Positions 11,269-64,000 of a stretch of 64,000 nt of DNA are shown one piece after another (the first letter of the stretch is position 1; each line of letters begins with the position of its first letter). A program made the position numbers and the translations under genes. Origin of the DNA: Eledone cirrhosa. Its lineage: Eukaryota. The notes beneath the pieces were generated by a model, which was given only the letters and a program-made list of their open reading frames with translations, did not search any database and had not been told where the DNA came from. The DNA is taken from positions 41,354,001-41,418,000 of the forward strand of contig OZ024742.1 of the NCBI GenBank assembly GCA_964016885.1. The letters are read 5' to 3'.

Positions 11269-11303
11269 ACTTTCTGATGAAGACCCAACTAGGTCTGAAA
11301 ATC
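11269..11303 (+). ncRNA. Minimal type I hammerhead ribozyme in a ~270-bp pLTR-like insert (11100-11370)
   Basis: ACTTT-CTGATGA-AGACC-caacta-GGTCT-GAAA-ATCAAT-TA^-AAGGT, with TATATAA ~40 nt upstream. Confidence 0.7.
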
Positions 11304-11369
11304 AATTAAAGGTATTTAGCAACTTTTGCAATTTACAGGGAAATTTGTATTTTCTGGCATATTTACATG

Positions 11370-14280: not shown

Positions 14281-14616
14281 ATATTAATAAATGGAAACTA
14301 TATTTATAAAACCATAATTATTTTATTATATATATTTCAAGGGCAACCAAGGCAGTTTTGGTGCGCTTTCATCAGATAAATACCAAATTTGTTTTATAAA
14401 TGTTGACATACCCTTAGAAAAACAACCTTGACGGTTGAAGGTTCGCTGGATAGTCAAGCGAATCTTCAACCGCCAAGGTTGTTTTTCTAAGGGTATGTCA
14501 ACATTTATAAAACAAATTTGGTATTTATCTGATGAAAGCGCACCAAAACTGCCTTGGTTGCCCTTGAAATATATATAATAAAATAATTATGGTTTTATAA
14601 ATATAGTTTCCATTTA

Positions 14617-17969: not shown

Positions 17970-20900
17970 GCTGTAAAATGGAGGGGTAGAGAGGGCCCTT
18001 GAGTCTAGTAAGACATCCTCTCTAGTGCTGGTGGCACAAATAAAAGCACCCAGTCCATGCTGTAAAGTGGCGCTGGTGTTAGGAAGGGCATCCAACCAGT
18101 GTATCAATGCCAAAACGCTTATCAGCACAGCAACAAATAGGAACAACAACAAAATATGAAGACGTCGCATCTCAGAGTTGCAACACTTAATGTTGGCACT
18201 CTCAGAGGTAGATCTGCTGAAATAGCGGAGATGCTGGAGAGAAGGCAGGTGGATGTGTGCTGCGTGCAAGAGGTGAGATGGAGAGGTGCCTCTGTGAGAC
18301 TAGTCGTAGGCAAGCGTCTTAGCTATAAGCTACTCTGGGTAGGTAAGGATGATGGGCTAGGGGGAGTAGGCATTTTCCTGGCTGAGAAATGGATCAATAA
18401 GACAATAGAGTTAGTAATCGAATAATTAAGCTTAGATTAGTTGTAGGTAGGAGACTACTGACAATCATCTCGGTCTATGCTCCCCAAGCAGGCCTAGGCA
18501 AAGATGAGAAAGACTGCTTTTACGAGCAACTTTTGCAAACAACCACAATGACAGAGGACGGAGACATCGTTATGCTAGCAGGAGACTTCAATGGTCATGT
18601 TGGACAGCTCCAGGATGGTTACACTGGGGTACATGGTGGGCACGGTTACGGTTCAAGAAGTGAAGAAGGAGTGAGACTTCTTGAATTTTGTGATGCGAGT
18701 ACATTGACTATTTGCAACACAAACTTCCAGAAACCTGCCAATCACCTAATAACCTACAAATCTGGCGAGCACATAAGCCAGATTGACTTCTTGCTAGTTA
18801 GGCAGCGGGACAGGTAGATAGTGTCTAATACCAAGGCATACCCTGGGGAAGAATGTACCCCACAGCATAGGTTAGTTGTTAGTGATATCTCAGTAAGCAA
18901 GAGATGGAATGAGACATATAGGAAGGTGTGGAGAAGAAAGGTCTGGAAGCTAAAAGGCCTTTCACTAAAATACAAATTTAGGAAAGCCCTTCAAGATGTA
19001 TATGACGAAAAAGAAGACGATTTAGAGACGTATGACATAGATAATAACTGGAATTTCTTACGTGACAACTTGCTGCAGGCTACTGATGAAATCTGTGGCT
19101 GGAGCAGAGCTCCAACCAGACAGAGAGTGACCTGGTGGTGGAACAGCACAGTAGATAAGGCTATTAGAGACAAAAGACTAGCATGGAAGGCTTGGAAAAA
19201 GGGTGGGAGTAGGGAAGAATATACAGCCACTAAGAGAGAAGCTAGACGTCAGGTGTACTTAGCACGCAGGGAGGCAGAGAGTAGGAGGTTTGCCAATGTT
19301 CTGCGACGGGAAGATCAGAGGCGTGCGGTGTTCCACATTGCAAGGCAGTGTGTCAATGCAAATCAGGATGTTGTTGGAGATAAATGTGTCCGGGATGATG
19401 CCGGTGTACTTAGTGTCACGAATGATCAGAAAAAGGAGGCCTGGAAATGTCATTATGAGAGACTGATGAATGTGGAGAACGAATGGGAGAGAGAGAAATT
19501 ACCCTTGGTAGATCCGACAGAGGGACCAGCTATTGAGATTGACGAATATAGGGTCCAAGAGGCGATTAGGGAAATGAAAAATGGTAAGGCGGCCGGACCA
19601 TCGGGAATAGTTGCTGAGATGCTGAAGGCATCAGGGGACGTAGGCACTAAACTGGTTGCACGCATCATCAATCAGGCTATATATGGTGGTGTCATACCCA
19701 AAGACTGGTGCAGCAGTATTCTCATAAATTGCTACAAAGGTAAAGGGGATGCTTTGGAGAGGAGCAATTATAGGGGTATAAAACTGATAGATCAGGTTAT
19801 GAAAGTGGCAGAGAGAATATTAGTGCAACTAATTAGAGAAAGGGTCAAACTAGATGAGATGCAGTTTGGTTTTGTGCCTGGGAAGAGTACAACAGATGCC
19901 CTCTTCTTGGTGAGACAAATGCAAGAGAGGTTCTTAGAGAAGAATAAGCCACTATACTTAGCCTTTGTTGACCTAGAGAAGGCCTTTGATAGGGTACCCC
20001 GATCTGTCATCTGGTGGTCCCTAAGGAAGCTAGGTGTTGAGGAATGGCTTGTGAGGACAGTGCAAACTTTGTACAGAGGTACTCTCAGTAAAGTCAGGGT
20101 AGGAATGGAGTTTAGTGAGGAATTCCAGATACAAGTAGGAGTACATCAGGGCTCGGTCCTCAGCCCGCTCTTGTTCATTATAGTCCTCCAAGCCATAACA
20201 GAGGAGTTTAAGACTGGCTGTCCATGGGAACTTCTCTATGCTGACGATCTGGTTCTTATAGCAGAATCAGTAGAGGAGCTAGAGAATAAATTCTGGCTAT
20301 GGAAACAGCAGTTGGAAGCAAGAGGACTGAGAGTGAATCTAGCTAAGACAAAAGTGTTGATGAGTAGAAAAGAGGACAAAACCCTGATTCCGTCGGGGAA
20401 ATGGTCATGTTCGATATGCAGAAAAGGAACTGGCATAAATTCTATAAAATGCACACAATGCAGATCCTGGGTACACAAGAGATGTAGTGGGATAGCAGGC
20501 AAACTAACAGGTAGGGAGAAATATGTATGCAGTAGATGTACAGGGAAATTAGACAGTAGAAGTTGCACTGATAGACACATTTTTCAAATGCAAGAGGGCG
20601 CTATAGAAGTGGTAGATAGCTTCTGGTACCTAGGAGATCAGATTAGCATGGGAGGAGGGTGTTCCGAGGCCATAGTATCTAGAATAAGGACGGGTTGGAA
20701 GAAGTTTAGGGAGCTGCTTCCTCTGTTGACGAAGAAGGGTTTCTCCCTGCGTACGAAAGGCCGGTTGTATAATGCCTGTGTGAGGAGCGCGATGCTGCAT
20801 GGTAGTGAGACATGGGCAGCAACTGCAGAGGATATGCGACGGCTGGAGAGAAATGAGGCAAGCATGCTCCGTTGGATGTGCAGTGTAAATGTGCATGAAC

Positions 20901-21232
20901 GACCCAGCATAAATGTGTTGAGAGAGAAACTGTGTCTGAGCGGCATAGAATGTAGTGTACGGGAGAGGAGACTGAGGTGGTATGGACATGTGATGCGCAT
21001 GGAGGATGACCGATGGGTGAAGAAGTGCCAGGAAATGCCAGTTGAAGGAAGACGTGGTAGAGGTAGGCCACGAAAAACATGGGTGGAGGTGGTGAGAACA
21101 GACCTCAGATCATTGAAGCTCACGGTGGAGATGACGAGGGACCGTGACGAGTGGAGAGATGCTGTGCTGAATAAGACCCGTCCCACCCTTGCAAGCAGGG
21201 AAAAGCGGACGTAAAATGATGATGATGATGAT
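17970..21232 (+). mobile_element. Near-full-length RTE-clade LINE (APE endonuclease-RT-PHD finger), disrupted, antisense within ZnT1 intron 3
   Basis: ATLNVGTL, QEVR, GDFNGH and IDF endonuclease motifs. QFGF, FVDLEKAFD, QGSVLSP and YADD RT motifs. (ATG)n tail. Frameshift at ~18420 and TAG at 18815-18817. The 5' boundary is approximate. Confidence 0.95.
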
Positions 21233-42230: not shown

Positions 42231-42511
42231 GGAGGCACATGGCTTAGTGGTTAGAGCATTGGCCTTGCAATCGAAAGGTTGTGAGTTCAATTCTCAGTCC
42301 GGGTGATGTGTTGTTTCCTTGAGCAAGACACTTTATTTCACATTGCTCCAGTTTACTCAGCTGTAGAAATGAGATGATAGGGACTGGGGTCCCTATCATT
42401 CCACTGTTAAGAAGGGCATCCAGCTGTAGAAATCAAGCCAGAATCAGTTCCCGTCCCACCCTTGCAAGCAGGGAAAAGTGGACGTAAAATGAAATGATGA
42501 ATGATGATGAT
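42231..42511 (+). mobile_element. tRNA-derived SINE (family A) with internal deletion
   Basis: Same head and tail as the copy at 11447. Confidence 0.9.
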
Positions 42512-42632
42512 ACATATATATTCATATATATATACATATATATAAGCAAATTATAAATGTAAACATGTAAGAATGTTTTTGAAACGGTGCGCGAGTTTGA
42601 AAATTAGAAATTAAAAATTATAAGCTTTCACC

Positions 42633-42924
42633 GTATTTTAGACTAAAGACATTTCTAGCCTGATAGTGGGGTTTATAACCCTCGGAGAAATGGAAAAAGA
42701 TGAGTGTTGCCGTACATGGGAGTCAAATCCTCATCTTTGGTTATCCAGACCAATGTGCTACCATTACACCAATACACATCCCATGGATGGTGTAATGGTA
42801 GCACATTGGTCTGGATAACCAAAGATGAGGGTTTGACTCCCATGTACGGCAACACTCATTTTTTCCATTTCTCCGAGGGTTATAAACTCCACTATCAGGC
42901 TAGAAATTTCTTTAGTCTAAATAC
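42633..42924. repeat. ~290-bp palindrome made of two divergent tRNA-like heads
   Basis: Arms 42633-42771 and 42788-42924. Each has TGGTGTAATGGT (A box) and G(G/A)TTTGACTCC (B box). Confidence 0.85.
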
Positions 42925-44154: not shown

Positions 44155-44700
44155 CGTTTTAATACATATTAACATTTTCTTTCCATCGCACATATTATTA
44201 AACCCTTAAATATTATTCTTAATACATATTAACATTTTCTTTTCATCGCACGTATTATTAAACCCTTAAATATACAAACCTTAACTTTACATTATTTTTC
44301 CCTTCGTTAATTTTCAAATTCTTTTAATTTATACATTATCTTCCAACGGTTTTTCAACCTCTCTATGTAAAACAATATATTTTCTCAGTTATAAAAGCTA
44401 TCTCTCTCTCTCTATCACCCATCTCTCCTCCTATCTCCTCCTTCCTCATTATACTCCTCCCCCTTCACTTTTTACTCTCATCTCCTCCTCTTTTTCACCC
44501 CCCAATATCACACATCAATCTAAAACTACTTTTCATATGTTGATTTAAAACTGCACTATCCACAAGTGTTTTTTAACCTTCATATCATGTCTTCCTATTT
44601 TATATGATGAAAACACAAATGTTATTGCATGATGATATTTGTTTTTGAAATGCGCATAATAAAATACATGGAACTCTTTTAACCATCTTTTGATTTTATA
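44155..44700 (+). mobile_element. pLTR-like mini-element with a mutated hammerhead (44597-44666)
   Basis: Reverse-orientation homologue of 51199-51605. Core reads ATGATGA instead of CTGATGA. Confidence 0.8.
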
Positions 44701-44735
44701 TATTATATATACATATATATACATATATACATATA

Positions 44736-46752
44736 GAGGAGAATGCATGGGAAGAAGAGACCCTACCCCACGTAGACCCTATAGAGGGACCAGCAGTACA
44801 AGTCAGCGGCAGCGTAGTAAGTAAGGCAATCAGAGATATGAAGATAGGGAAGGCAACCGGTCCATCGGGTATAGCTGCCGAGATGCTGAAGGCATCTGGG
44901 TCTGTAGGTCACACTATAACCACACGTATCGTTAACCAGGTAATACTAGAGGGGGCCATACCAAAAGATTGGTGCAGTAGCATCATTGTCAACTGCTACA
45001 AAGGTAAAGGCGATGCACTAGATAGAGGAAACTATAGAGGTATAAAGTTGATGGACCAGGTCATGAAAGTAACAGAAAGAGTTATAGCACAGCTGATTAG
45101 GGACCGGGTGAATATAGACGAGATGCAATTTGGGTTTGTACCAGGGAAAGGCACCACTGATGCCCTCTTCCTTGTGAGGCAATTACAGGAAAAGTACCTA
45201 GCTAAAAGTAAGCCACTCTACTTGGCATTTGTCGACCTTGAGAAAGCCTTTGACAGAGTTCCACGTGCAGTAATCTGGTGGGCTCTTAGAAAACTAGGAG
45301 TAGATGAATGGCTTGTGAAAGCGGTACAAGCCATGTATAGGGGAGCAGTCAGCAAAGTTAGGATTGGCAATGAGTATAGCGAGGAATTTAGCGTACAGGT
45401 TGGGGTCCACCAGGGCTCTGTTCTTAGCCCTCTCCTGTTCATCATAGTCCTGCAGGCAATAACGGAGGAGTTTAAGACCGGATGCCCATGGGAACTCCTG
45501 TATGCTGATGACCTCGCACTCATAGCTGAATCTATGGTAGAACTAGAGAATAAATTCCAAACCTGGAAGCAGGGACTAGAGAGAAAGGGCCTCAAAGTCA
45601 ACATGACAAAGACTAAGGTCCTTGTAAGTAGACGAGAAAACAGAACCCAGATCCCCTCAGGGAAATGGCCTTGCTCAGTATGTAGGAAAGGTGTAGGTAG
45701 GAACTCCATTCTCTGCCCCAAATGCAAACAATGGGTACACAAGAGATGTAGCGGGATCTCAGGAAGCTTAATTAAGAATGTAGGATTCACATGCAGCAGC
45801 TGTGCTGAAACAGCAAGCAAACAGCCACAGGAAACAAGTACCACCAATCTCTGGGAGGGCCCTGTAGAAACAGTAGACAGCTTCTGCTACCTAGGTGACC
45901 GAATTAGCAACGGAGGTGGGTGCTCAGAAAGTACAATAACTAGGGTAAGAACGGGATGGAAGAAGTTTAGGGAACTACTACCACTGCTAGCTGCAAAAGG
46001 CTTCTCCCTCAGAATGAAAGGCAGACTGTATGATGCGTGTATCCGAACAGCGATGTTGCATGGTAGTGAGACCTGGGCGCTGAAGGTGGAAGACTTACGT
46101 AGATTAGAGAGAAACGAAGCCTGCATGCTCCGATGGATGTGTAACAGTAATATACGTGAACGACAAAGCATAAAGGAATTGAGAGAGAGACTGAGCATAA
46201 GAGGAATCAAATGCTGCGTGCAGGAGAGGCGGTTACGCTGGTATGGACATGTGATGCGTATGAAGGATGACAGCTGCATAAAAAGGTGCAGAGCACTAGA
46301 AGTTGATGGAAACCGCGGAGTGGGGAGACCCAAGATGACTTGGGATGAGGTGATAAAAGCCGACCTTACCCAACTACACCTCTCAAAGTCAATGACACAC
46401 GACCGTGACTTCTGGCGTCACGCAGTAATACAGGGTACCCGACCTCCCATGGGTACATGCTGAAGCATATAAACAATATGCCCCCCCCCCCACCGCAAGG
46501 TGGCCGTGGAGGTGCCACGGCAAAAAAGCACCCAGCCCACACTGTAAAGTGGACGTGTAGGCGCCACGAAAAAGCACCCAGCACTCACTGTAAATGAGGT
46601 TGGTGTTAGGAAGGGCATCCAGCTGTAGAAATCAAGCCAGATCAGTTCCTGTATGAGCAAGGCATGGTCAGCCGACCAGACACTGCCCACAACAGGACAA
46701 CCCGTCTAACCCATGCTAGCGTGGAAGAACGGACGTAAAACGGTGATGATGA
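44736..46752 (+). mobile_element. 5'-truncated RTE LINE with an intact RT-PHD ORF (44838-46463)
   Basis: Uninterrupted 541-aa RT ORF with YADD, followed by a 3' UTR and (GAT)n tail. Confidence 0.95.
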
Positions 46753-48037
46753 TGCCCATGGGAACTCCTGTATGCTGATGACCTCGCACTCATAGCTGAA
46801 TCTATGGTAGAACTAGAGAATAAATTCCAAACCTGGAAGCAGGGACTAGAGAGAAAGGGCCTCAAAGTCAACATGACAAAGACTAAGGTCCTTATAAGTA
46901 GACGAGAAAACAGAACCCAGATCCCCTCAGGGAAATGGCCTTGCTCAGTATGTAGGAAAGGTGTAGGTAGGAACTCCATTCTCTGCCCCAAATGCAAACA
47001 ATGGGTACACAAGAGATGTAGCGGGATCTCAGGAAGCTTAATTAAGAATGTAGGATTCACATGCAGCAGCTGTGCTGAAACAGCAAGCAAACAGCCACAG
47101 GAAACAAGTACCACCAATCTCTGGGAGGGCCCTGTAGAAACAGTAGACAGCTTCTGCTACCTAGGTGACCGAATTAGCAACGGAGGTGGGTGCTCAGAAA
47201 GTACAATAACTAGGGTAAGAACGGGATGGAAGAAGTTTAGGGAACTACTACCACTGCTAGCTGCAAAAGGCTTCTCCTTCAGAATGAAAGGCAGACTGTA
47301 TGATGCGTGTATCCGAACAGTGATGTTGCATGGTAGTGAGACCTGGGCGCTGAAGGTGGAAGACTTACGTAGATTAGAGAGAAACGAAGCCTGCATGCTC
47401 CGATGGATGTGTAACAGTAATATACGTGAACGACAAAGCATAATTGAATTGAGAGAGAGACTGAGCATAAGAGGAATCAAATGCTGCGTGCAGGAGAGGC
47501 GGTTACACTGGTATGGACATGTGATGCGTATGAAGGATGACAGCTGCATAAAAAGGTGCAGAGCACTAGAAGTTGATGGAAACCGTGGAGTGGGGAGACC
47601 CAAGATGACTTGGGATGAGGTGATAAAAGCCGACCTTACCCAACTACACCTCTCAAAGTCAATGACACACGACCGTGACTTCTGGCGTCACGCAGTAATA
47701 CAGGGTACCCGACCTCCCATGGGTACATGCTGAAGCATATAAACAATATGCCCCCACTCCCCCCACCGCAAGGTGGTCGTGGAGGTGCCACGGCAAAAAA
47801 GCACCCAGCCCACACTGTAAAGTGGACGTGTAGGCGCCACGAAAAAGCACCCAGCACTCACTGTAAATGAGGTTGGTGTTAGGAAGGGCATCCAGCTGTA
47901 GAAATCAAGCCAGATCAGTTCCTGTATGAGCAAGGCATAGTCAGCCGACCAGACACTGCCCACAACAGGACAACCCGTCTAACCCATGCTAGCGTGGAAG
48001 AACGGACGTAAAACGGTGATGATGATGATGATGATGA
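46751..48037 (+). mobile_element. Tandem duplicate of the last ~1.27 kb of the preceding RTE
   Basis: Nearly identical to 45481-46750. Confidence 0.93.
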
Positions 48038-50841: not shown

Positions 50842-51098
50842 TGCAGTTTTAAATCAACATATGAAAAGTAGTTTTAGATTGATGTGTGATATTGGGAAAA
50901 AATATTTTATTTAGAGAGGGGGGGGGTGGAAAGGATGAAAAAAGGGGAGGAGATGAGAGTGAAGGTGGAGAGGGAGAGATGGGTGATAGAGAGAAAGAGA
51001 TATTATTGCATGATGATGTTTGTTTTTGAAATGCGCATAATAAAATACATGGAACTCCTTTAACCATCTTTTGATCTTAATATATATATATATATATA

Positions 51099-51180
<82 letters not shown>

Positions 51181-51198
51181 TATATATATATATATATA

Positions 51199-51796
51199 TA
51201 AGATCAAAAGATGGTTAAAGGAGTTCCATGTATTTTATTATGCGCATTTCAAAAACAAACATCATCATGCAATAATATTTGTGTTTTCATCAGATAAAAC
51301 AGGAGAACATGATATGAAGGCTAAAAAACACTTGTGGATAGTGCAGTTTTAAATCAACATATGAAAAGTAGTTTTAGATTGATGTGTGATATTGGGAAAA
51401 AATACTTTATTTAGAGAGGGGGGGGGGAAAGGATGAAAAAAGGGGAGGAGATGAGAGTGAAGGTGGAGAGGGAGAGATGGGTGATAGAGAGAAAGAGATA
51501 GTTTTTATAACTGAGAGAAGATATATTGTTTTACATAGAGAGGTTGAAAACCGTTGGAAGATAATGTATAAATTAAAAGAATTTGAAAATTAACGAAGGG
51601 AAAAATATGTACGAGGAAAAAATATTTTATTTAGAGAGGGGGGGGGGGAGGATGAAAAAAGGGGAGGAGATGGGAGTGAAGGTGGAGAGGGAGAGATGGG
51701 TGATAGAGAGAAAGAGATATTATTGCATGATGATGTTTGTTTTTGAAATGCGCATAATAAAATACATGGAACTCCTTTAACCATCTTTTGATCTTA
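51199..51796 (-). mobile_element. ~600-bp hammerhead mini-element with ~80-bp terminal inverted repeats; partial copies at 50842-51079 and 54392-54478
   Basis: TAAGATCAAAAGATGGTTAAAGG...CAATAATA at 51199-51278, with its complement at ~51720-51796. (TA)n on both sides. Confidence 0.85.
51232..51300 (-). ncRNA. Type I hammerhead ribozyme with palindromic stem III
   Basis: GTTTTAT-CTGATGA-AAACACAAATATTATTGCATGATGATGTTTGTTTTT-GAAA-TGCGCA-TA^-ATAAAAT. 7-bp stem I, long stem II, fully canonical core. Confidence 0.88.
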
Positions 51797-51812
51797 TATA
51801 TATATATATATA

Positions 51813-52024
<212 letters not shown>

Positions 52025-52026
52025 TA

Positions 52027-52085
<59 letters not shown>

Positions 52086-52086
<1 letters not shown>

Positions 52087-53286
52087 CGGCGATGAATTAG
52101 TTTTGCGAGGTTTTTTATATGAAATCGTGTGTCGAAACAGATATTGTTATATTTGGGGAGGGTCATATTTGCGTAATATTGCCAGAATTAATAACAGAAC
52201 ACACTCACTGTTTGGTTGGTTTTCGCTTCTCGCTGTCTTTTATATATATATATATCTGCGATCTAACTTACTCGGTCCTCAATGTTGCCATTGACTGACC
52301 GGCGGTCAAAAATAATACAGATACAATATAGACACAAACACATATATATAGTTTACATAATTTACATAAATCTTTCGTTGCACATCTGCAACATCGTCAG
52401 TGGTGTTATATTCATTGTTCCTCCTGTTGTGTTGTATGTCTACGCCATTTTTTTTGTTCAGTCTGTCTATATATTTATTTATTTATTTGCTTGTTTGTTT
52501 ATCTTATTTTGTCTTCTTTGCGCATGCGTTTGCGTGTGTGTATAGTGTTATGTGTGATGTGTGACTAGTGTGTATAGTGTTGTGTCTGCTGGGTGACTAG
52601 TGTGTGTTTATGTGCTTGTGTATGTATTTATTTATCTTATTTTATTTAATTTTATTTACTTATTTATACTTCTCTTAGGTCAGTGTTGTTTGTTTGGGTG
52701 TTGTTGTTGTTCCACTCATTCTTTCTGTTTAGCTTTGGTCTTCTAATTTATATTTCACTGGCCTCTCTGATTTGCCTATCTGCTGGGTCATTCCTATGTT
52801 TAGATATTATTCTAATTTCTATGTTGTCTATGTTACCGTCATGTTGTTGTCTAGCATGTTCGTATAGTACTGACCCGTTTTTTCGTCCTTTTAGTTCCCC
52901 CCAGTGTTGGTCTATCCTTTCACCTATGCTACGAGCTGTCTCACCTATGTATGTTGTTGTCATGTTTCTGAACAAAAAAAATGGCGTAGACATACAACAC
53001 AACAGGAGGAACAATGAATATAACACCACTGACGATGTTGCAGATGTGCAACGAAAGATTTATGTAAATTATGTAAACTATATATATGTGTTTGTGTCTA
53101 TATTGTATCTGTATTATTTTTGAACGCCGGTCAGTCAATGGCAACATTGAGGACCGAGTAAGTTAGATCGCAGATATATATATATAAAAGACAGCGAGAA
53201 GCGAAAACCAACCAAACAGTGAGTGTGTTCTGTTATTAATTCTGGCAATATTACGCAAATATGACCCTTCCCAAATATAACAATAT
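52086..53286 (-). mobile_element. 5'-truncated Penelope-like element: GIY-YIG fragment between inverted ~320-bp pLTRs
   Basis: YIGETARSIGERIDQH...LYEH...RQIREASEI (52748-52965). Arms 52141-52461 and 52968-53286. Confidence 0.88.
53024..53066 (+). ncRNA. Hammerhead motif in the pLTR; element-sense copy on the - strand at ~52363-52405
   Basis: CTGACGA-t-GTTGCA-gatg-TGCAAC-GAAA-GATT-TA. Core and stem II are clear, stem I is weak. Confidence 0.65.
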
Positions 53287-55833
<2,547 letters not shown>

Positions 55834-56157
55834 ATCTCTTTTACTCTTTTACTCTTTTACCTGTTTCAGCCATCCGGCTGAGGCCATGCTGGGGCACCGC
55901 CCTTGTTGCTACACATTTTATCTCCAGTCCAGCCTGTATAGGTTGGCCACTGGTGTAGGAGGGAGTTTGTTGCTGCTGCCCTTCGGTTTCCCTCGTGTCT
56001 TGCTGTGGGCTCATCCGGGATCCTGGATAACAAGGTGTCGAGATGTTTCTTAAAGACATCCACCTCCACGTCATGCAAGTCTCGCAGATGCCTCGGCAGC
56101 CTGTTGAAGAGTTGAGGGCCCTTGAATCCCAGGCTATTGCAATACCTGCTCCTTATT

Positions 56158-58968
56158 CTAGATGTGGAAGACGGGACCTTTGGCACCACACAGTGACGTC
56201 CTGTTCGACGGTTGGTCCAGCTCCCAATGCCAAAGTTTGGTGCTAGTGCCTCCAGGATTTTCCACATGTAGATCACTGCGTATCTCTCCCGTCTTCGCTC
56301 CAAGGAAGGAGTAGAGGTTCAGTTCCTTCAGCCTCTCCCAGTAGCTTGTCTCCCTCATCTTGGCAATCCTCTTGGTGTAGCTTCGCTGGATTGCCTCAAG
56401 CTCCGTGGTTAGTTTGACACTATGGGGTGACCACAGCTGGGAGCAGTAGTCCAGGCGGCTTAGGACAAAAGTCCTCCACAGTGTCAACATGGTGTCTCGA
56501 TCTCTTGTAAGGAAAGTCCTCAAGATCCAGCCAGCGAATCGTCTACATGCTGTCGCCACCTTCATGATGTGTGAAGAAAAAGATGCATCATCGCTCATGT
56601 CTCTGCCCAGGTCTCGTATCGATTTTGACACGGGGATATCGGTCCCTCCTGGTCCTGTGTAGCTGTGTTCCGCTATATTTGTGTTTGTGTTTGCAGGTTT
56701 GTATTGTAGGGCTTGGAATTTGCCAGCATTAAACTGCATGTTGTTTTCTTCTGCCCATCTGTATATGGCATCCAGATCCTGCTGTAAAAGGGCAGCGTCA
56801 GCCGGGTTTTTGATTGCCTGTGCTACCTTAGTGTCATCAGCATAGCTAGTGAGGGATGTTGTTGCATGCACCACAGAGGGCATGTCCGAGAGAGCCACCA
56901 AAAACAGTAGTGGTCCCAGGACTGTCCCCTGAGGCACCCCACTTGTTATCGGTGTTTCCCTCGAGAGGGCCCCATTTGCTGCGACTGCCTGGCTTCTGTC
57001 CCTTAGGAAGCCATGCAGCCACTCACCTACTTTTCCAGTTATGCCGAGTCCGTGTAGTTTGTGACATATCATTCCGTGGTCGACCTTGTCAAAGGCCTTC
57101 GCAAAGTCAAGATATATCACGTCTACATGTGAGCTGTCTAGTAGTTGTCTCAGTACCCAGTCGTAGTGATGTAGCAGCTGTGTAAGGCAGCTTCTTCCTG
57201 GGCGGAAGCCATGTTGCGTGCTAGTCAGGCGGTCATTTTCTTCGAGGAAAGTGATTAGTTTCTTTCTGACGACTCGCTCCATGACCTTACTGATATGCGA
57301 CGTCAGGGAGACTGGCCTATAGTTCTTGGCCTCCGCTCTACTACCTCCTTTATGGATAGGGCATATTGTGCCTTCTTTCAGCTCCCTGGGTAGTACACCG
57401 CTAGCCAAGGAGCTTCTGAAGAGCATCTTCAGTGGAGTTGCTAAGGCCCGCTTACATATTTTTAGGAGAACTGCTGGGAATCCATCAGGTCCAGCAGCCG
57501 AGTCTGTTCTAATTTCATCAATGGCGTACACCACATCCTCCTCCATTATGTCTATGTGGTTGATGGTTGCCATTTCTTGATGTAGTGTTGTGGCATCAAA
57601 GAACTCCTCTGGCTTCGTTATTTGCATGTGCCTCAGTGGACATGTGAAGATACTTTTGTACTGTTCGTTCAGTATTTCACATATCTCTTGGGGATTTTCG
57701 GTTAATGAACCGTCCGTGTGGAAGAGTGGTCCAATCTTGCAGTGTACTGAGGCAGTTTCTTTTGCAAATTTAAAGAAGGCCTTAGGGTTTGTTTTAATGT
57801 TTTCTATGGCCTTGTTCTCTTTCCTTGCCCTCTCATTCTCATGTGAAAGCTTGAGTGCAATCTCGGTGTCAAGTAGTGCACGTTTCAAATAGGATTCCTT
57901 CTTGTTTTGGTTTTGTTGACTATTCAACTGGTTTGAGAGTTTAGTTCTACGTCTCATAAGGATTTTCCTATCTCTGGGAATAAGATTTTTGTGTCTGTTT
58001 GCCTCTTTCTCCGGGACACACTTTTTGCATATGGTGTGTATCGTTGTCATGAAGTGTTGAAATTGTGTGTTAGTGTCTTGTGTGGCGATGTTTGCACTCC
58101 ATGTTTGCTTCCGGATTTCACTCTTAATCTTCTTCCAGTAAGCCCCGTAGAAGTTAAGGCTGGATAGCGTCCCGGAGCTTCTTGGTGGTTTTGTCTCTGT
58201 TGGTTCTCTTGGACCACATATCATTAGCTCTACCAAGTTATGATCCGAGAGAATTGTTGGTGTCACCTTTACATTGTGGATGAGCACTTCGTTGTTTGTA
58301 AAACAGAGGTCCAGGACATTTTCGCCTCTTGTTGGGAGGAGTATTGCTTGCTCCATGAACAGCCTGTGTGTGAGGGCCAGCAGGGATTCCGTCTGTCTCT
58401 GTTCTATTGACGTCATTCCAGGGAGGAGGTTGCCCTCAGGCCATTTGACCTTTGGTAGGTTGAAGTCTCCCAGCAGTAGGATGTTGAGACCCTGGTCCAG
58501 TTTGTCAAGGACCTCTTCTATCCTACTTAGGCTATCCTCAAATTTACCCTCATGACTGGGGGCATCGGGCGGCCGATATGTGATACATATTACCGTCTGT
58601 AGTTGCTTCATATGTATTATCAGTGTGTCACAGACTGAGTTTGAATGTGTCAACAGTACAATTGGTGTGACATCTTCACGGATATACAGAGCAACCCCAC
58701 CATGAGTTCTCTCCTTCCTGTCCGAACGAAATACAATATATTTCGGTATATGTATTTCTGCATCTGCTATACTGCTTGTCAGGTGCGTTTCGGTTAGTGC
58801 CATGCATAGTGCTTGATTGCTTATGGCTAAGTCTCCCAGGTAGGAAATTTTACTCATGTTGCTGAGTTTCACCAGGCCCCTGACATTCAGCAGCAGCACT
58901 GGTGTGACTTTTGGGGTACCAGTAATGGCTGTCGGTATGACACCTGGTCTGGTGTCAGCGGCGGCCAC
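56158..58968 (-). CDS. LINE ORF2 (APE endonuclease + RT), with a frameshift near 56305 continuing into the 55866-56303 frame
   Basis: LLNVRGL, LTETHL, YRPP, GDFN, SDH, QHGF, YLDFAKAFDKVDH, SGVPQGTVLGP, YADD, YWERLKELNLYS/ERRRERY. Confidence 0.92.
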   Translation of the reverse strand: MAAADTRPGVIPTAITGTPKVTPVLLLNVRGLVKLSNMSKISYLGDLAISNQALCMALTETHLTSSIADAEIHIPKYIVFRSDRKERTHGGVALYIREDVTPIVLLTHSNSVCDTLIIHMKQLQTVICITYRPPDAPSHEGKFEDSLSRIEEVLDKLDQGLNILLLGDFNLPKVKWPEGNLLPGMTSIEQRQTESLLALTHRLFMEQAILLPTRGENVLDLCFTNNEVLIHNVKVTPTILSDHNLVELMICGPREPTETKPPRSSGTLSSLNFYGAYWKKIKSEIRKQTWSANIATQDTNTQFQHFMTTIHTICKKCVPEKEANRHKNLIPRDRKILMRRRTKLSNQLNSQQNQNKKESYLKRALLDTEIALKLSHENERARKENKAIENIKTNPKAFFKFAKETASVHCKIGPLFHTDGSLTENPQEICEILNEQYKSIFTCPLRHMQITKPEEFFDATTLHQEMATINHIDIMEEDVVYAIDEIRTDSAAGPDGFPAVLLKICKRALATPLKMLFRSSLASGVLPRELKEGTICPIHKGGSRAEAKNYRPVSLTSHISKVMERVVRKKLITFLEENDRLTSTQHGFRPGRSCLTQLLHHYDWVLRQLLDSSHVDVIYLDFAKAFDKVDHGMICHKLHGLGITGKVGEWLHGFLRDRSQAVAANGALSRETPITSGVPQGTVLGPLLFLVALSDMPSVVHATTSLTSYADDTKVAQAIKNPADAALLQQDLDAIYRWAEENNMQFNAGKFQALQYKPANTNTNIAEHSYTGPGGTDIPVSKSIRDLGRDMSDDASFSSHIMKVATACRRFAGWILRTFLTRDRDTMLTLWRTFVLSRLDYCSQLWSPHSVKLTTELEAIQRSYTKRIAKMRETSYWERLKELNLYSFLGAKTGEIRSDLHVENPGGTSTKLWHWELDQPSNRTSLCGAKGPVFHI

Positions 58969-59834
58969 TCTGGGTCCCTTAACTGCGGTGGTCTCGAGTG
59001 CTGGTGTGGATGACCCTGGCTCTGGAGACGATGCAGCCAGGTCAGCTGTCCCACAATCTTCTCTGCCATCACTAAAAAATTTTTCTGATCTGCTGCTGCC
59101 ATCTGTATCTCGTCGGCATGTGCGTGCCTTCTCCTTGTTGGTGCAGCACGCGCGACATCAGCATACTTCTGGAGCGGCTTATTTCGGCTTAGGCTGGGGC
59201 ATGTTGCGCGAGTATGATGGGCATAGTTCGTTTGAGACCTAGGGTGGGCGAATCTGCATCCCATCCCTGTCTCTCCATGCCAGCATGTCCCGTTCTTGAA
59301 AAACTTGCACATTACTTGGGGTTTTTTGCTCCCAGTGTCTCGGTGCTTTCTGTTCTTTCTTTGAACAGTTGTCCACTGGTCCCTCTGCGCTTGGTTCTCC
59401 TTCGGAAGGTGATTTCGCTTTTCACCTTTGCCCTTAGCTTGTTGGTTGCCCGGCCTGCCCTCCCTGCCTGTAGCGGAGGGTATATCATTTTCTTTCAGGT
59501 CCGTGCTTGTGCTCTCCTCCTTTTCTTTTTCCCTTTCCTCTTCCTTTTCCCTCTCCTTCTCCTCATCCCTCCCTTCGGTTTTCTCCTCCCTGAGGACACG
59601 GCTTAGCATCGCCATATGAGGCGCTATGAGGACATACGCCTTCTCAATTTCTTTTCTCTTTCTCTCTATCTGTGCCAGGGTCCTCAGAAACCCATGGCTC
59701 TTCAGGTTCTCCGCCATCTTTTTGCTTGGTGGAGACCCATCAGCCATAGTCCACCCCTTGATCAAAACCGCTAGTTCCATCTTCGACCAGTTTCGCTGAC
59801 TCCTGATTTCACATTTTTCCTGCATGCAGTCCAT
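58887..59834 (-). CDS. LINE ORF1 with a CCCH zinc finger
   Basis: 315-aa ORF overlapping the start of ORF2. Charged coiled region and CKFFKNGTCWHGETGMGCRFAH. Confidence 0.8.
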   Translation of the reverse strand: MDCMQEKCEIRSQRNWSKMELAVLIKGWTMADGSPPSKKMAENLKSHGFLRTLAQIERKRKEIEKAYVLIAPHMAMLSRVLREEKTEGRDEEKEREKEEEREKEKEESTSTDLKENDIPSATGREGRPGNQQAKGKGEKRNHLPKENQAQRDQWTTVQRKNRKHRDTGSKKPQVMCKFFKNGTCWHGETGMGCRFAHPRSQTNYAHHTRATCPSLSRNKPLQKYADVARAAPTRRRHAHADEIQMAAADQKNFLVMAEKIVGQLTWLHRLQSQGHPHQHSRPPQLRDPEWPPLTPDQVSYRQPLLVPQKSHQCCC

Positions 59835-60042
59835 TTCGCTGTGGAGGGGAGAAAGAGAGACAGTGGGAAGTGTAGGGTAGAGGTTAGAGAGGGACAGAGT
59901 GAGGGAGGGAGATAGAGATATAACTCCAGCGAGAGAAAAAGAAAGAGAAACAGAAGAAAAGAAAAGAAAAGGGGGGAGACAGAAGAGGGAGCGAGAGAGA
60001 TAGCGGGAAGAGTGGGGGGGGGGGAGGTCAGAGGGAGAGAGA

Positions 60043-60078
<36 letters not shown>

Positions 60079-60730
60079 GGAGGGAGGGAGGGAGGGAGAG
60101 AGAGAGAGACAGAGAGAGAGACAGAGAGAGAGAGAGAGGAAGGAAGGAGAGAGATAGAGACAGCGTGAGCAACAGCAGTTCATAAATATAAAAATAAATT
60201 TTTAAATTTAAATTAATGAATGGAAGAAACCGGAAACAGAGATATAGAAACACGATGTAAGTTGTATATATAAGCTGAACGTAAATGTTTGTTTACAAAT
60301 ATACGAAGTTATTGTAATATCAGCATATCATACAAGAAACAACGAAATCGGGTCAAATACAGATAAGATTATACCAAATCAAACAAGATTATATCAAATT
60401 AAATTATGTTACTCAGAAAAATCAAAATTAATACAAGATCTGCTGAAGTTAAACCAAAATGCTCTGTATGGTAGACAAACAAAAATAGAAAGCACGTGTG
60501 TGTGTTGTCTCCTATGAAGGAATCATACAGTGAAAATAAACATGTTCAAAACGGTAATATATGTAAAATATACTTCAAAATAATTGCGTCAAAGCACAAA
60601 AACTTATCTTTTTTGTATGTTTTCCTTGTCCTCTGAAGAATTAAAACCATACATAAATCCGATTACTGTCGATTTAAAATATTAAAATTTCAAATCTGGA
60701 GAGACGACAATATATATATATATATATATA

Positions 60731-60796
<66 letters not shown>

Positions 60797-60820
60797 TATA
60801 TATATATATATATATATATA

Positions 60821-60866
<46 letters not shown>

Positions 60867-60876
60867 TATATATATA

Positions 60877-60952
<76 letters not shown>

Positions 60953-60962
60953 TATATATATA

Positions 60963-61086
<124 letters not shown>

Positions 61087-61096
61087 TATATATATA

Positions 61097-61191
<95 letters not shown>

Positions 61192-61202
61192 TATATATAT
61201 GC

Positions 61203-61234
<32 letters not shown>

Positions 61235-61264
61235 TATATATGCATATATATATATATATATATA

Positions 61265-61301
<37 letters not shown>

Positions 61302-61479
61302 GCATATATATGCATATATATATATATATGCATATATATATATATATGCATATATATATATATATATGCATATATATATATATATGCATATATATATATG
61401 CATATATATATATATATATATATATATGCATATATATATATACATATACATGCATATATATATATATACATATACATGC

Positions 61480-61512
<33 letters not shown>

Positions 61513-62934
61513 CGTAGTTAAGAAAGCCACAACAATGCAGAGGGAAATCTCGAGGTAGGAAGTGAAAGATAGATAGGAAAAACAGGTGAAAGTGAAAATT
61601 GAGAGAGACAAAGATGAAAACAAAACAAAGGTAGAAGGGTTTCACCCCGTAGTGGAGATTTAATCCCAATATTTCGGGCTCACGCCCATCAACGGGGGAA
61701 AGTTCCAAAAGGGGGGGAACAGGCCAAGCGGAGAAAGTTGTGATGTCGTTAAGACAGGAATGCCGTTATGGGGAAAAAATTATTTAAAATTTAAACGAGG
61801 GAAAGAATGCGCGTGCGCGTGATAGGCTGTGGCAAAAGCTACTGACCAAATGGGTTAAATCAAGAGGGTGCGCTAGCGTGTGAAAGCCGTAAGATATGAG
61901 TGTGTAAATATATATGTGTGTGTAACTGTGTGTATAAGTGTAAGTGTGTATATGTGTGAGTGTGTGTGAAAGATAGTGGGCTGTAGAAGCTGGAAATCAA
62001 AGGGTGTGAAAGGTGGTAGGTTGTAAAACATGTGTGCGTGTATAAATATAGATGTGTGTGTGTAAGCGTATGGGTATACATGTGTGTGTAACTGTGTGTG
62101 TATATGTGTGAGTGCGTTTGTGTGTGAAAGATAGTGGGCTGTAGAAGCTGGAAATCAAAGGGTGTGAAAGGTGGTAGGTTGTAAAAACATGTGTGCGTGT
62201 ATAAATATAGATGTGTGTGTGTATGCGTATGGGTATGCATATACGTGCGTGTGTGTGAAGATAGCAGGCCGTAGGCTGTGAATGGTCACTATGGTTAAGT
62301 TAGCCATGTCAGCTCATTTCTCTCAGCCCGGTTGTTAAGTGGGGGTCTGAGGTTCTTAATAACAAGTGCTTCCTTTATCCTTAAGGATCCGATGCTGCGT
62401 TCAGTCGCTAGGACTGTGACCAAGGGTCTACCCTGTGGGTTTCCGCATTTAAGGATGTGTTTGCGGAAGGAAGATGCGTTGGTGTTGATATGTTCCTTGA
62501 TACGAACATGTAGGGGTCGGATGGTGCTACCTATGTAAAACTTGTTACATTTATCGCATTGAATCTTATATACGACATAGGTGCGTAGGCAATCTGCCCC
62601 CTGTATCGGGCAGTTGCTGAGGGAACACGTCCCATCTGACTCGTCGGGTTTGTTGGAGAGGCATCTTCGCAGCGAAGGTCCTGTGTGGGCCAAATGTATG
62701 TTAAGTCCCTCCGTCCGTATGGCCCAGCGGATGGCGTTCGTGGTATATTCACTCAGGTGGGGGATTTTAAAGAAGCACCCTGCTATTAATTAATTTTCTA
62801 GTGGGTGTCTGTCTAGTGGGTCTGGGGTCTCTAATTCCGTTAATCAGTCGCTTTAAAATCCCCCACCTGAGTGAATATACCACGAACGCCATCCGCAGGG
62901 CCATACGGACGGAGGGACTTGACATACATTTGGC
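61513..62934 (-). mobile_element. 5'-truncated Penelope-like element with a short inverted 5' end and degenerate hammerhead
   Basis: GIY-YIG ORF. Inverted repeat 62689-62772 / 62851-62934. TCCCCCGTTGAT-GGGC-gtga-GCCC-GAAA-TATT-GGGA at 61664-61699 (-). Internal ~165-bp duplication. Confidence 0.85.
62295..62770 (-). pseudogene. Penelope linker + GIY-YIG endonuclease fragment
   Basis: FKIPHLSE...C.LSNCP...C...VVYKIQCDKCNKFYIGST.R....RIKEH...KEAL.I....P.LN. Confidence 0.9.
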
Positions 62935-62975
62935 ATATATAAACATGCATATATATATATGCATATATATATATA

Positions 62976-63059
<84 letters not shown>

Positions 63060-63141
63060 TATATATATATATGCATATATATATATATATATGCATATAT
63101 ATATATATATATATATGCATATATATATGCATATATATATA

Positions 63142-63221
<80 letters not shown>

Positions 63222-63240
63222 TATATATATATATATGCAC

Positions 63241-63311
<71 letters not shown>

Positions 63312-63398
63312 TATATATATATATAGGCATATATATATATATATATATGCATATATATATATATATATATAAGCATATATATATATATATATATAAGC

Positions 63399-63473
<75 letters not shown>

Positions 63474-63857
63474 TATATATATATATATATATGCATATAT
63501 ATATATATATGCATATATATATATATATGCATATATATATATGCATATGCATATATATATATATATATATGCATATATATATATATATATGCATATATAT
63601 ATATATATATGCATATATATATATATATGCATATATATATATATATATATGCATATATATATATATATATGCATATATATATATATATATATATGCATAT
63701 ATATATATATATATATGCATATATATATATATATATATGCATATATATATATACATATATATATATATATGCATATATATATATATATATATAGATATAT
63801 ATATATATATATATATGCATATATATATATATATATATATGCATATATATATATATA

Positions 63858-63963
<106 letters not shown>

Positions 63964-64000
63964 CATATATATATATATATGCATATATATATATGCATAT

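What the first reader, a model, noticed from the sequence alone, without database searches (positions are those of the whole stretch)
51199..51796. Best hammerhead: canonical core, palindromic stem III, and an inverted terminus made from the ribozyme's own 3' half
The minus-strand motif at 51232-51300 has a 7-bp stem I, a long stem II and ATGCGCAT as stem III. Palindromic stem III loops are known to permit dimeric hammerhead cleavage. The element's other end is an inverted copy that starts inside stem II, so the ~80-bp 'TIR' is a half-ribozyme. Further copies sit at 50842-51079 and 54392-54478, separated by (TA)nTGCA. Inference: fold-back priming or template switching at the ribozyme hairpin produced a MITE-looking element that amplified locally.
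Basis: partly seen in the sequence, partly recalled or inferred. Interest (0 to 1): 0.75.

Follow-up and report, generated by a model that had tools for sequence, protein, structure and literature searches.

The report
Penelope retrotransposon stub, not ribozyme MITE
This mirror-ended repeat is two broken end-pieces of a very abundant, known kind of animal jumping gene joined head to head, and its join inside the predicted self-cutting RNA is a one-off, whereas thousands of sister copies break at another spot that likely marks where the element's RNA begins.

Summary
The anatomy is real: a type I hammerhead motif (51232-51300, minus strand) and a perfect 80-bp inverted repeat that starts in stem II. 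The interpretation mostly fails. The element is two 5'-truncated 3' ends (521 and 80 nt) of a Hydra-clade Penelope-like retroelement (821-codon RT/GIY-YIG frame in sister copies). The hammerhead 32-mer occurs 8,281 times genome-wide. This exact junction occurs twice, both in this window. Stem II is no hot spot (8 of 144 sampled arms, p=0.70). The real hot spot lies 62 nt upstream of the ribozyme (47 of 144 arms; at least 4,262 copies), likely the RNA's 5' end. In 81 of 84 head-to-head pairs exactly one arm has an ~85-nt tail, more often the shorter arm (35 vs 10), which argues for priming from both cut ends, not fold-back. This copy is an outlier with no tail at either end, so a later DNA-level rearrangement, fold-back or assembly artefact remains open. 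Its own inverted repeat is predicted to block the ribozyme. The scan noted the same twin-primed architecture before in other families (this and other genomes). New family of a known kind.

The parts
51199..51796 (.). Head-to-head stub of a Hydra-clade Penelope-like element (two 5'-truncated 3' ends), in a (TA)n array
51199..51719 (-). Long arm: last ~521 nt of the element's 3' UTR/pLTR, no tail
   Evidence: native continuation seen as loose ends at 51719
51717..51796 (+). Short arm: last 80 nt of the pLTR, starting in stem II, no tail
51717..51719 (.). 3-nt microhomology (ATA) at the private junction
   Evidence: the junction 26-mer occurs 2 times genome-wide
51232..51300 (-). Type I hammerhead motif; predicted cut between 51239 and 51238
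   Evidence: cleavage not tested
51251..51286 (-). Stem II region: 12-bp hairpin plus 3 basal pairs, A-U at 10.1-11.1
51240..51247 (-). Palindromic stem III (8-bp self-duplex, -10.5 kcal/mol)
51355..51362 (-). Family-wide 5'-truncation hot spot (begins at 51362, 164 nt from the element end); inferred RNA start; not used by this copy
51395..51500 (.). 3' UTR direct repeat, copy 1 (copy 2 at 51615-51719, 96% identical)
50842..51079 (.). Local duplicate with the same private junction, one UTR repeat unit shorter; its outer 143 nt would lie in the gap
54392..54477 (-). Solo 86-nt end of the same element, no tail, TA on both sides
44288..44698 (+). Older subfamily copy (87%), ribozyme core mutated at C3
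50642..50841 (.). Assembly gap (200 N)
50842..64000 (.). Nest of (TA)n arrays with TGCA interruptions, continuing to about 81 kb beyond the window start

Best explanation
The 598-bp unit is two 5'-truncated 3' ends of a Hydra-clade Penelope-like retrotransposon joined head to head through a 3-nt microhomology, likely made when both cut ends of a (TA)n target each primed a DNA copy of the element's RNA, and then likely reshaped and duplicated at the DNA level. Shown: the family identity, genome-wide abundance, the private junction, the truncation profile and the one-tail rule in sister pairs. Inferred steps: (1) the GIY-YIG endonuclease cuts both strands of (TA)n; (2) each end primes reverse transcription, one at the element end and one ~85 nt further 3' (the tail); (3) copying usually runs off at a fixed point 164 nt from the end (likely the RNA start) and otherwise stops at scattered points, here 521 and 80; (4) the two copies anneal by microhomology; (5) in this copy the tail was lost or overwritten and the unit duplicated inside an unstable palindromic TA array, or the assembly did so. 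The hammerhead is a passenger of the pLTR. It is predicted to be weak as a monomer, able to fold as a dimer, and blocked in this copy by the 80-bp inverted repeat.
For: Sister copies carry an 821-codon frame with DKT, YRDD, CxCx5C, GIY-YIG-like, CxxC and CxH motifs, matching the Hydra description in PMC8557442 section 11. The family has 8,281 exact hammerhead 32-mers and 10,679 terminal 31-mers; the junction occurs twice. Of 144 arms, 47 end at 160-168 nt and 8 end in stem II (0.22 per nt vs 0.28-0.43 in the next two intervals; 8 of 31 arms in 40-159, p=0.70). Genome-wide, at least 4,262 arms have a non-native base before position 164 (30 of 30 checked were junctions) plus 716 perfect palindromes, against about 52 at position 80 (104 x 15/30), about 64 at the ribozyme cut (175 x 11/30) and about 24 at a control position (103 x 7/30). 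Public-run contigs show a depth drop and clustered joints at 51359-51362. Exactly one tail in 41 of 44 and 81 of 84 pairs; tail on the shorter arm 35 vs 10 (p=0.0002), and 14 vs 4 where the short arm ends in stem II. A copy made by fold-back cannot carry a tail its template lacks. A purified PLE protein cuts and extends both strands and starts at two sites bracketing the tail (PMC11167929). Stems I-III have pairing probability 0.000 in the whole element.
Against: This copy has no tail at either end: 0 of 84 and 1 of 44 sister pairs look like that, and the one case (L036) is a 3.4-kb DNA-level inverted duplication. Three tail-less ends here share the flank spacing 17-19 then 42-44 nt, as expected if arm plus flank were copied as DNA. 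In the less selected sample the short-arm tail bias is only 19 vs 10 (p=0.14). Arms of one insertion are closer to each other than to a typical other insertion (mean 2.3 vs 5.4 differences, but equal to the nearest other), which does not separate the models. Short fold-backs do occur at the 164 site (9 of 30). No RNA data support the start site. Pfam, NCBIfam and PDB searches did not recognise the protein, so clade assignment rests on motifs and a by-eye comparison.
Confidence: 0.72

Rival explanations
1. This particular copy is a fold-back: one tail-less cDNA, or the integrated DNA end, self-primed through the ATA match at position 80 and was copied back through the element end into the flank. 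The position in stem II is incidental, set by the short AT-rich match.
For: No tail at either end; similar outward flank spacing at three ends; L036 shows a tail-less DNA-level inversion in this family; self-priming was proposed for PLE inverted junctions in PMC3846280 (passages).
Against: The flank array is nearly palindromic, so its spacing fits a direct duplication equally well. All 18 sister pairs with a short arm in stem II have one tail.
Confidence: 0.2
2. The local copies and the TGCA-interrupted arrays are partly assembly or consensus artefacts of palindromic AT repeats beside a gap.
For: The duplicate abuts a 200-N gap and lacks exactly one UTR repeat unit. TGCA interruptions number 147 in window 50842-64000 against 6 in 33.5 kb of TA arrays in 80 other loci, where TGTA/TACA dominates (426).
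Against: The TGCA trait runs for about 30 kb across several unrelated insertions and fades at about 81 kb, as a real expanded array could. The family itself is present in public-run contigs.
Confidence: 0.25
3. One reading: the ribozyme's stem II hairpin directs fold-back or template switching and creates a MITE-like family with a fixed half-ribozyme terminus.
For: The junction does lie in stem II; about 52 arms genome-wide end at the same base.
Against: No enrichment in stem II; the exact junction is private; the other position-80 junctions have different partners; tail geometry excludes fold-back in 14 of 18 stem II cases.
Confidence: 0.04
4. The 164 hot spot is not an RNA start but a strong pause or a join favoured by the self-complementary ATAT/CATATG there, or an amplified non-autonomous mini-element.
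For: Both arms can anneal through this palindrome (716 perfect cases). None of the tandem upstream copies inspected (L045, L046, L058, L060, L097) begins at 164. Part of the G excess can come from the partner arm's native next base.
Against: Arms also stop there when joined to plain TA, to tails or to other positions. Junctions are heterogeneous, so they arose many times independently. G precedes the site in 45 of 100 vs 6 of 31 control junctions (p=0.012).
Confidence: 0.25

Closest known systems
Hydra clade of C-terminal EN+ Penelope-like elements (Craig et al. 2021, PMC8557442), e.g. Hydra-1_Obim
   Same: Single ORF with RT then GIY-YIG, DKT, CxCx5C linker, CxxC and CxH, no GxKF/Y, no CCHH, hammerhead in the 3' UTR, (TA)n targets, inverted 5'-truncated copy, tail at one end.
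   Different: RWT rather than RWK; unit of 3.3-3.9 kb rather than under 3 kb (repeated UTR, Asn-rich linker); tail ~85 nt rather than 30-40; hammerhead sequence and 12+3-bp stem II unlike Hydra-1_oBim's; an 18-nt motif of this family has 0 hits in the supplement.
PLE hammerheads with small palindromic helix III (Cervera and de la Pena 2014, PMC4209133)
   Same: Type I, in the pLTR, palindromic stem III, predicted to work as a dimer; pairs on opposite strands 100-700 bp apart are described there.
   Different: Longer stems I and II, and A-U instead of G10.1-C11.1; activity untested here.
PAc Poseidon element in vitro (Frangieh et al. 2024, PMC11167929)
   Same: Both strands cut and extended; two RT start sites bracket the tail; ribozyme cleavage not needed for insertion, matching the scarcity of arms ending at the cut site here.
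   Different: Another clade; the passages read do not describe a 5' run-off hot spot or which arm bears the tail.
Non-LTR retrozymes (bioRxiv 10.64898/2026.07.22.740005; PMC7229834, listing only)
   Same: Type I hammerhead, non-coding, PLE-derived.
   Different: Retrozymes are head-to-tail tandem units each with a full ribozyme; this is a head-to-head stub with one full ribozyme.
MITEs (recalled)
   Same: Short, non-coding, terminal inverted repeats, AT-rich site.
   Different: No fixed-length family with this junction; the inverted repeats are retroelement 3' ends of variable length.

Membership tests
Hydra-clade PLE | Single ORF, RT followed by C-terminal GIY-YIG | tested here: met
   821-codon frame in sister copy L031 with FDIASYY, YRDD and LIYE...YFG motifs; Pfam gave no hit, so this is a motif-level test
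Hydra-clade PLE | DKT in place of DKG; GxKF/Y not conserved | tested here: met
   DKT at 144, no GxKF/Y
Hydra-clade PLE | RWK motif | tested here: inconclusive
   RLRWT at 56: RW kept, K replaced
Hydra-clade PLE | CxCx5C linker; CxxC and CxH late in EN; no CCHH | tested here: met
   CNCRIKNKC at 680, CNLC at 780, CLH at 808; no cysteine pair between GIY and YIG
Hydra-clade PLE | Insertion into (TA)n; hammerhead in the 3' UTR | tested here: met
Hydra-clade PLE | Length generally under 3 kb | tested here: not met
   tandem units of 3.3-3.9 kb; the paper gives this as a general tendency, not a diagnostic
Hydra-clade PLE | Phylogenetic placement | not tested
   no tree built; by-eye likeness to Hydra-1_Obim in the supplement
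Type I hammerhead ribozyme | Core C3-A9, G12-A14, A15.1-U16.1, H17 with three stems | tested here: met
Type I hammerhead ribozyme | G10.1-C11.1 pair | tested here: not met
   A-U in 39 and G-U in 10 of 50 variants
Type I hammerhead ribozyme | Structure kept across variants | tested here: inconclusive
   97.5% of cells paired and subfamily changes are G-U/Watson-Crick swaps, but 0 two-sided changes and no excess over shuffles
Type I hammerhead ribozyme | Self-cleavage | not testable with these tools
   no assay; only ~64 arms end at the predicted cut vs ~24 at a control
MITE | Many dispersed copies with the same ends and interior | tested here: not met
   junction occurs twice, both local
Non-LTR retrozyme | Head-to-tail tandem units each with a complete hammerhead | tested here: not met
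   one complete motif of this family at 50.8-54.5 kb; a second could lie in the gap

The most novel reading that the evidence does not exclude
Thousands of insertions of this family are fossil run-off products of a capped RNA that starts 62 nt upstream of its hammerhead: both target ends prime, the reverse transcriptase copies the cap as an extra G, and in about 3% of cases it realigns on the template's first bases and adds 8-nt repeats in a telomerase-like way (167 genomic cases; 3 of 30 inspected have 3-4 units).
Probability: 0.25. Interest if true: 0.65.

Novelty: new member of a known kind. Interest (0 to 1): 0.3.

Why it matters
The finding as written is ordinary: inverted, truncated Penelope ends with hammerheads are a described layout. 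The value lies in the family statistics. How PLE inverted ends and tails form is an open question, and self-priming is the published suggestion (PMC3846280). The one-tail rule and the tail on the shorter arm argue for two priming events. The sharp stop at 164 gives a testable RNA start. The near absence of stops at the ribozyme cut suggests uncleaved RNA is the template in vivo, as found in vitro. If the cap copy and 8-nt reiteration are made by the element's enzyme, they would link PLE reverse transcriptases to telomerase-like repeat addition.

Tried and rejected
DNA search of the own genome gave nothing because common words are skipped; exact patterns were used instead. Rfam found no hammerhead at gathering or E<=10. 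Pfam, NCBIfam and PDB did not recognise the ORF. No RNA holder listed among public runs. No listed contig of runs X1-X4 bridged the private junction; a hole proves nothing. The bacterial promoter scan is irrelevant to an animal and was ignored. The repeat finder was swamped by TA arrays. The 10 arms at 501-530 nt are likely an older subfamily diverging from my references, not a second hot spot. Idea that TGCA arrays are made by this element: rejected, since only 10 ends genome-wide match the end-plus-TGCA pattern (2 here) and the arrays also flank unrelated elements. Ribozyme cut as a major truncation point: rejected (about 64 vs about 24 control vs over 4,000). Covariation test: no two-sided changes. 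Within-element arm identity did not separate the models. Four of 54 hammerhead variants with indels were left out of alignment A1.

Full report
Observation. On the minus strand 51300-51232 reads stem I (7 bp, terminal G-U), CUGAUGA, a 36-nt stem II region, GAAA, ATGCGCAT, A, stem I'. The terminal inverted repeat is 80 bp and perfect, and its inner end lies in stem II. Rfam does not call it. Below, positions 'd' count from the element's 3' end (d = window position - 51198).

What it is. The window lies in a 3.0-Gb animal genome; earlier scan notes call it octopus-type, which I did not test. The exact hammerhead 32-mer occurs 8,281 times and a terminal 31-mer 10,679 times, reversed controls 0. 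Of 20 fetched clusters of hits, most enclose pieces of one reading frame. The longest, 821 codons in L031, has RLRWT, DKT, FDIASYY, YRDD, CxCx5C, a GIY-YIG-like stretch, CxxC and CxH and no GxKF/Y. These are the features given for the Hydra clade of Penelope-like elements (PMC8557442 section 11). By eye it resembles Hydra-1_Obim in that paper's supplement, but the hammerhead differs. Profile searches did not recognise the protein. The 598-bp unit is the last ~521 nt of this element in antisense joined to its last 80 nt in sense, sharing ATA at 51717-51719. Inverted 5'-truncated copies with a tail at one end are the described PLE layout (PMC8557442 passages; PMC3846280 passages), and hammerhead pairs on opposite strands were reported as truncated PLEs (PMC4209133 parts 1-2 of 4).

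Is the inversion point fixed in stem II? No. The junction 26-mer occurs twice in the genome, both in this window. I mapped 144 distinct arms in 87 loci of contig C1, chosen from the first 100 hits (not all hits were fetched, and long pairs were picked on purpose). Eight end in stem II (0.22 per nt), against 0.43 and 0.28 per nt in the next two intervals and 0.08 in the 13 nt before it; 8 of 31 arms between d40 and d159 is what length predicts (p=0.70). Forty-seven of 144 end at d160-168. Genome-wide, 4,262 matches have a non-native base before d164 and 30 of 30 inspected are true junctions; 716 more sites are perfect palindromes there. The same test gives about 52 at d80 (104 x 15/30), about 64 at the predicted cut, d40 (175 x 11/30), and about 24 at control d42 (103 x 7/30). 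The patterns differ in subfamily coverage, so these figures are rough. Contigs of four public runs (one study, possibly the assembly's source) show depth falling and joints clustering at 51359-51362.

What d164 likely is. The native context is pyrimidines then A, like an animal start site (recalled), and the Penelope promoter lies in the pLTR (PMC2377424 passages). G precedes the site in 45 of 100 listed non-native cases against 6 of 31 control junctions (p=0.012). An extra G from the cap is known at full-length L1 junctions (PMC11702581 passages). Against this, the partner arm's native next base is also G, so only about half of the G cases are clearly untemplated; the site is self-complementary; tandem upstream copies do not start there; and I have no RNA data.

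Fold-back or two primings? An ~85-nt tail follows the end in one arm and not the other in 41 of 44 abutting pairs (2 have two tails, 1 has none) and in 81 of 84 pairs under 1.4 kb (3 have two, 0 have none; this set overlaps the first and includes loci picked for junction position). In tandem copies the tail runs on into the ORF start. A fold-back copy cannot reach further out than its template, so the tail should sit on the longer arm. It sits on the shorter arm in 35 pairs and the longer in 10 (36 about equal), and in 14 vs 4 of pairs whose short arm ends in stem II. In the first set the ratio is 19 vs 10 (p=0.14). This fits two priming events at two sites, as a purified PLE protein extends both strands and starts at two sites bracketing the tail (PMC11167929 parts 1-2 of 4). 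The published suggestion is self-priming, and short self-primed hairpins may explain 9 of 30 cases.

This copy is an outlier. Neither end has a tail, nor do the ends at 51079 and 54392. The only tail-less sister pair, L036, is a 3.4-kb, 99%-identical inversion that includes flank. Three ends here share outward GC spacing of 17-19 then 42-44 nt, but the array is nearly palindromic, so direct and inverted copying cannot be told apart. The duplicate at 50842-51079 lacks one UTR repeat and abuts the gap. TGCA interruptions are local: 147 in 50842-64000, 1 in the first 50.6 kb, 6 in 80 other loci, continuing to about 81 kb. I therefore favour an ordinary insertion later reshaped in an unstable array, with DNA-level fold-back and assembly artefact as live rivals.

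The ribozyme. Across 50 variants 97.5% of pair cells are paired, and the common changes are G-U/Watson-Crick swaps, N7 or loop changes. There is no two-sided change and no excess over shuffles, and 10.1-11.1 is not G-C. The monomer fold has probability about 1e-5 in one register. The double hammerhead is -30.7 kcal/mol against -10.8 for two monomers and -34.1 for the two-strand optimum. In the whole 598-nt transcript, and in one from d164 to the gap, the inverted repeat removes stems I-III altogether. Calling it the best hammerhead is fair for the sequence but not for this locus.

Novelty. It is a new family of a known clade in a known layout. Searches for a description of a 5' run-off hot spot, cap copying or twin priming in PLEs listed nothing that reports them, but the library lacks most subscription papers, bioRxiv supplements were closed, and of the retrozyme preprint I read part 1 of 5 and of PMC13282606 only passages. 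My reading was recorded before the look-up. The scan's earlier notes describe twin-primed stubs and RNA-start pile-ups in other families of this and other genomes; none matched this sequence or place. The boldest open reading concerns 167 copies with a direct repeat of the first 8 nt at d164: 21 of 30 are not of the simple fold-back type, 3 have 3-4 units and 1 is an internal duplication in native context. This could be telomerase-like realignment, or templated insertion by host end-joining (recalled). Interest 0.3.

Noticed in passing
G000-wide; e.g. L248-L277: 167 copies carry a direct repeat of the first 8 nt at the d164 hot spot, 3 of 30 inspected with 3-4 units, often preceded by G; either RT realignment or host templated insertion.
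   Followed up: partly
window 14322-14582: Another head-to-head pair of complete hammerhead motifs (different family, ATATATAT stem III) beside a TA run.
   Followed up: no
window 52085-53285: A second inverted element between TA arrays with hammerhead-like cores at 52400 (-) and 53029 (+), weak stem I, and by eye a ~55-nt extension at one end.
   Followed up: partly
window 62298-62930: GIY-YIG endonuclease fragment (Pfam PF01541, E 4e-5) of another PLE with a short inverted arm.
   Followed up: partly
window 50842 to about 81 kb (L233, L234): About 30 kb of (TA)n arrays with TGCA instead of the usual TGTA/TACA interruptions, holding several inverted structures and a distantly related RT fragment at 68.2-69.2 kb (65%).
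   Followed up: partly
L036, L236, L237: 3.4-kb, 99%-identical inverted duplication including flank, centred on a tail-less copy of this family.
   Followed up: partly
L198/L199, L211/L212, L223/L224: Both arms of one insertion share the same rare substitution: same template molecule or conversion between arms.
   Followed up: no
L045 tail region: The ~85-nt tail folds into small hairpins, candidates for marking the two start sites.
   Followed up: partly
window 18401-21214, 44694-47733, 56158-60179: Long LINE-type RT frames (RTE-like and CR1/L2-like by recalled motifs, untested); 45481-48027 is a 1.27-kb tandem duplication at 99%.
   Followed up: no
window 42239-42843: Three tRNA-like matches just above the Rfam cut-off, two of them inverted near-copies; likely SINE heads.
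   Followed up: no
window 11269-11313: Small plus-strand hammerhead-like motif with 5-bp stems I and II.
   Followed up: no
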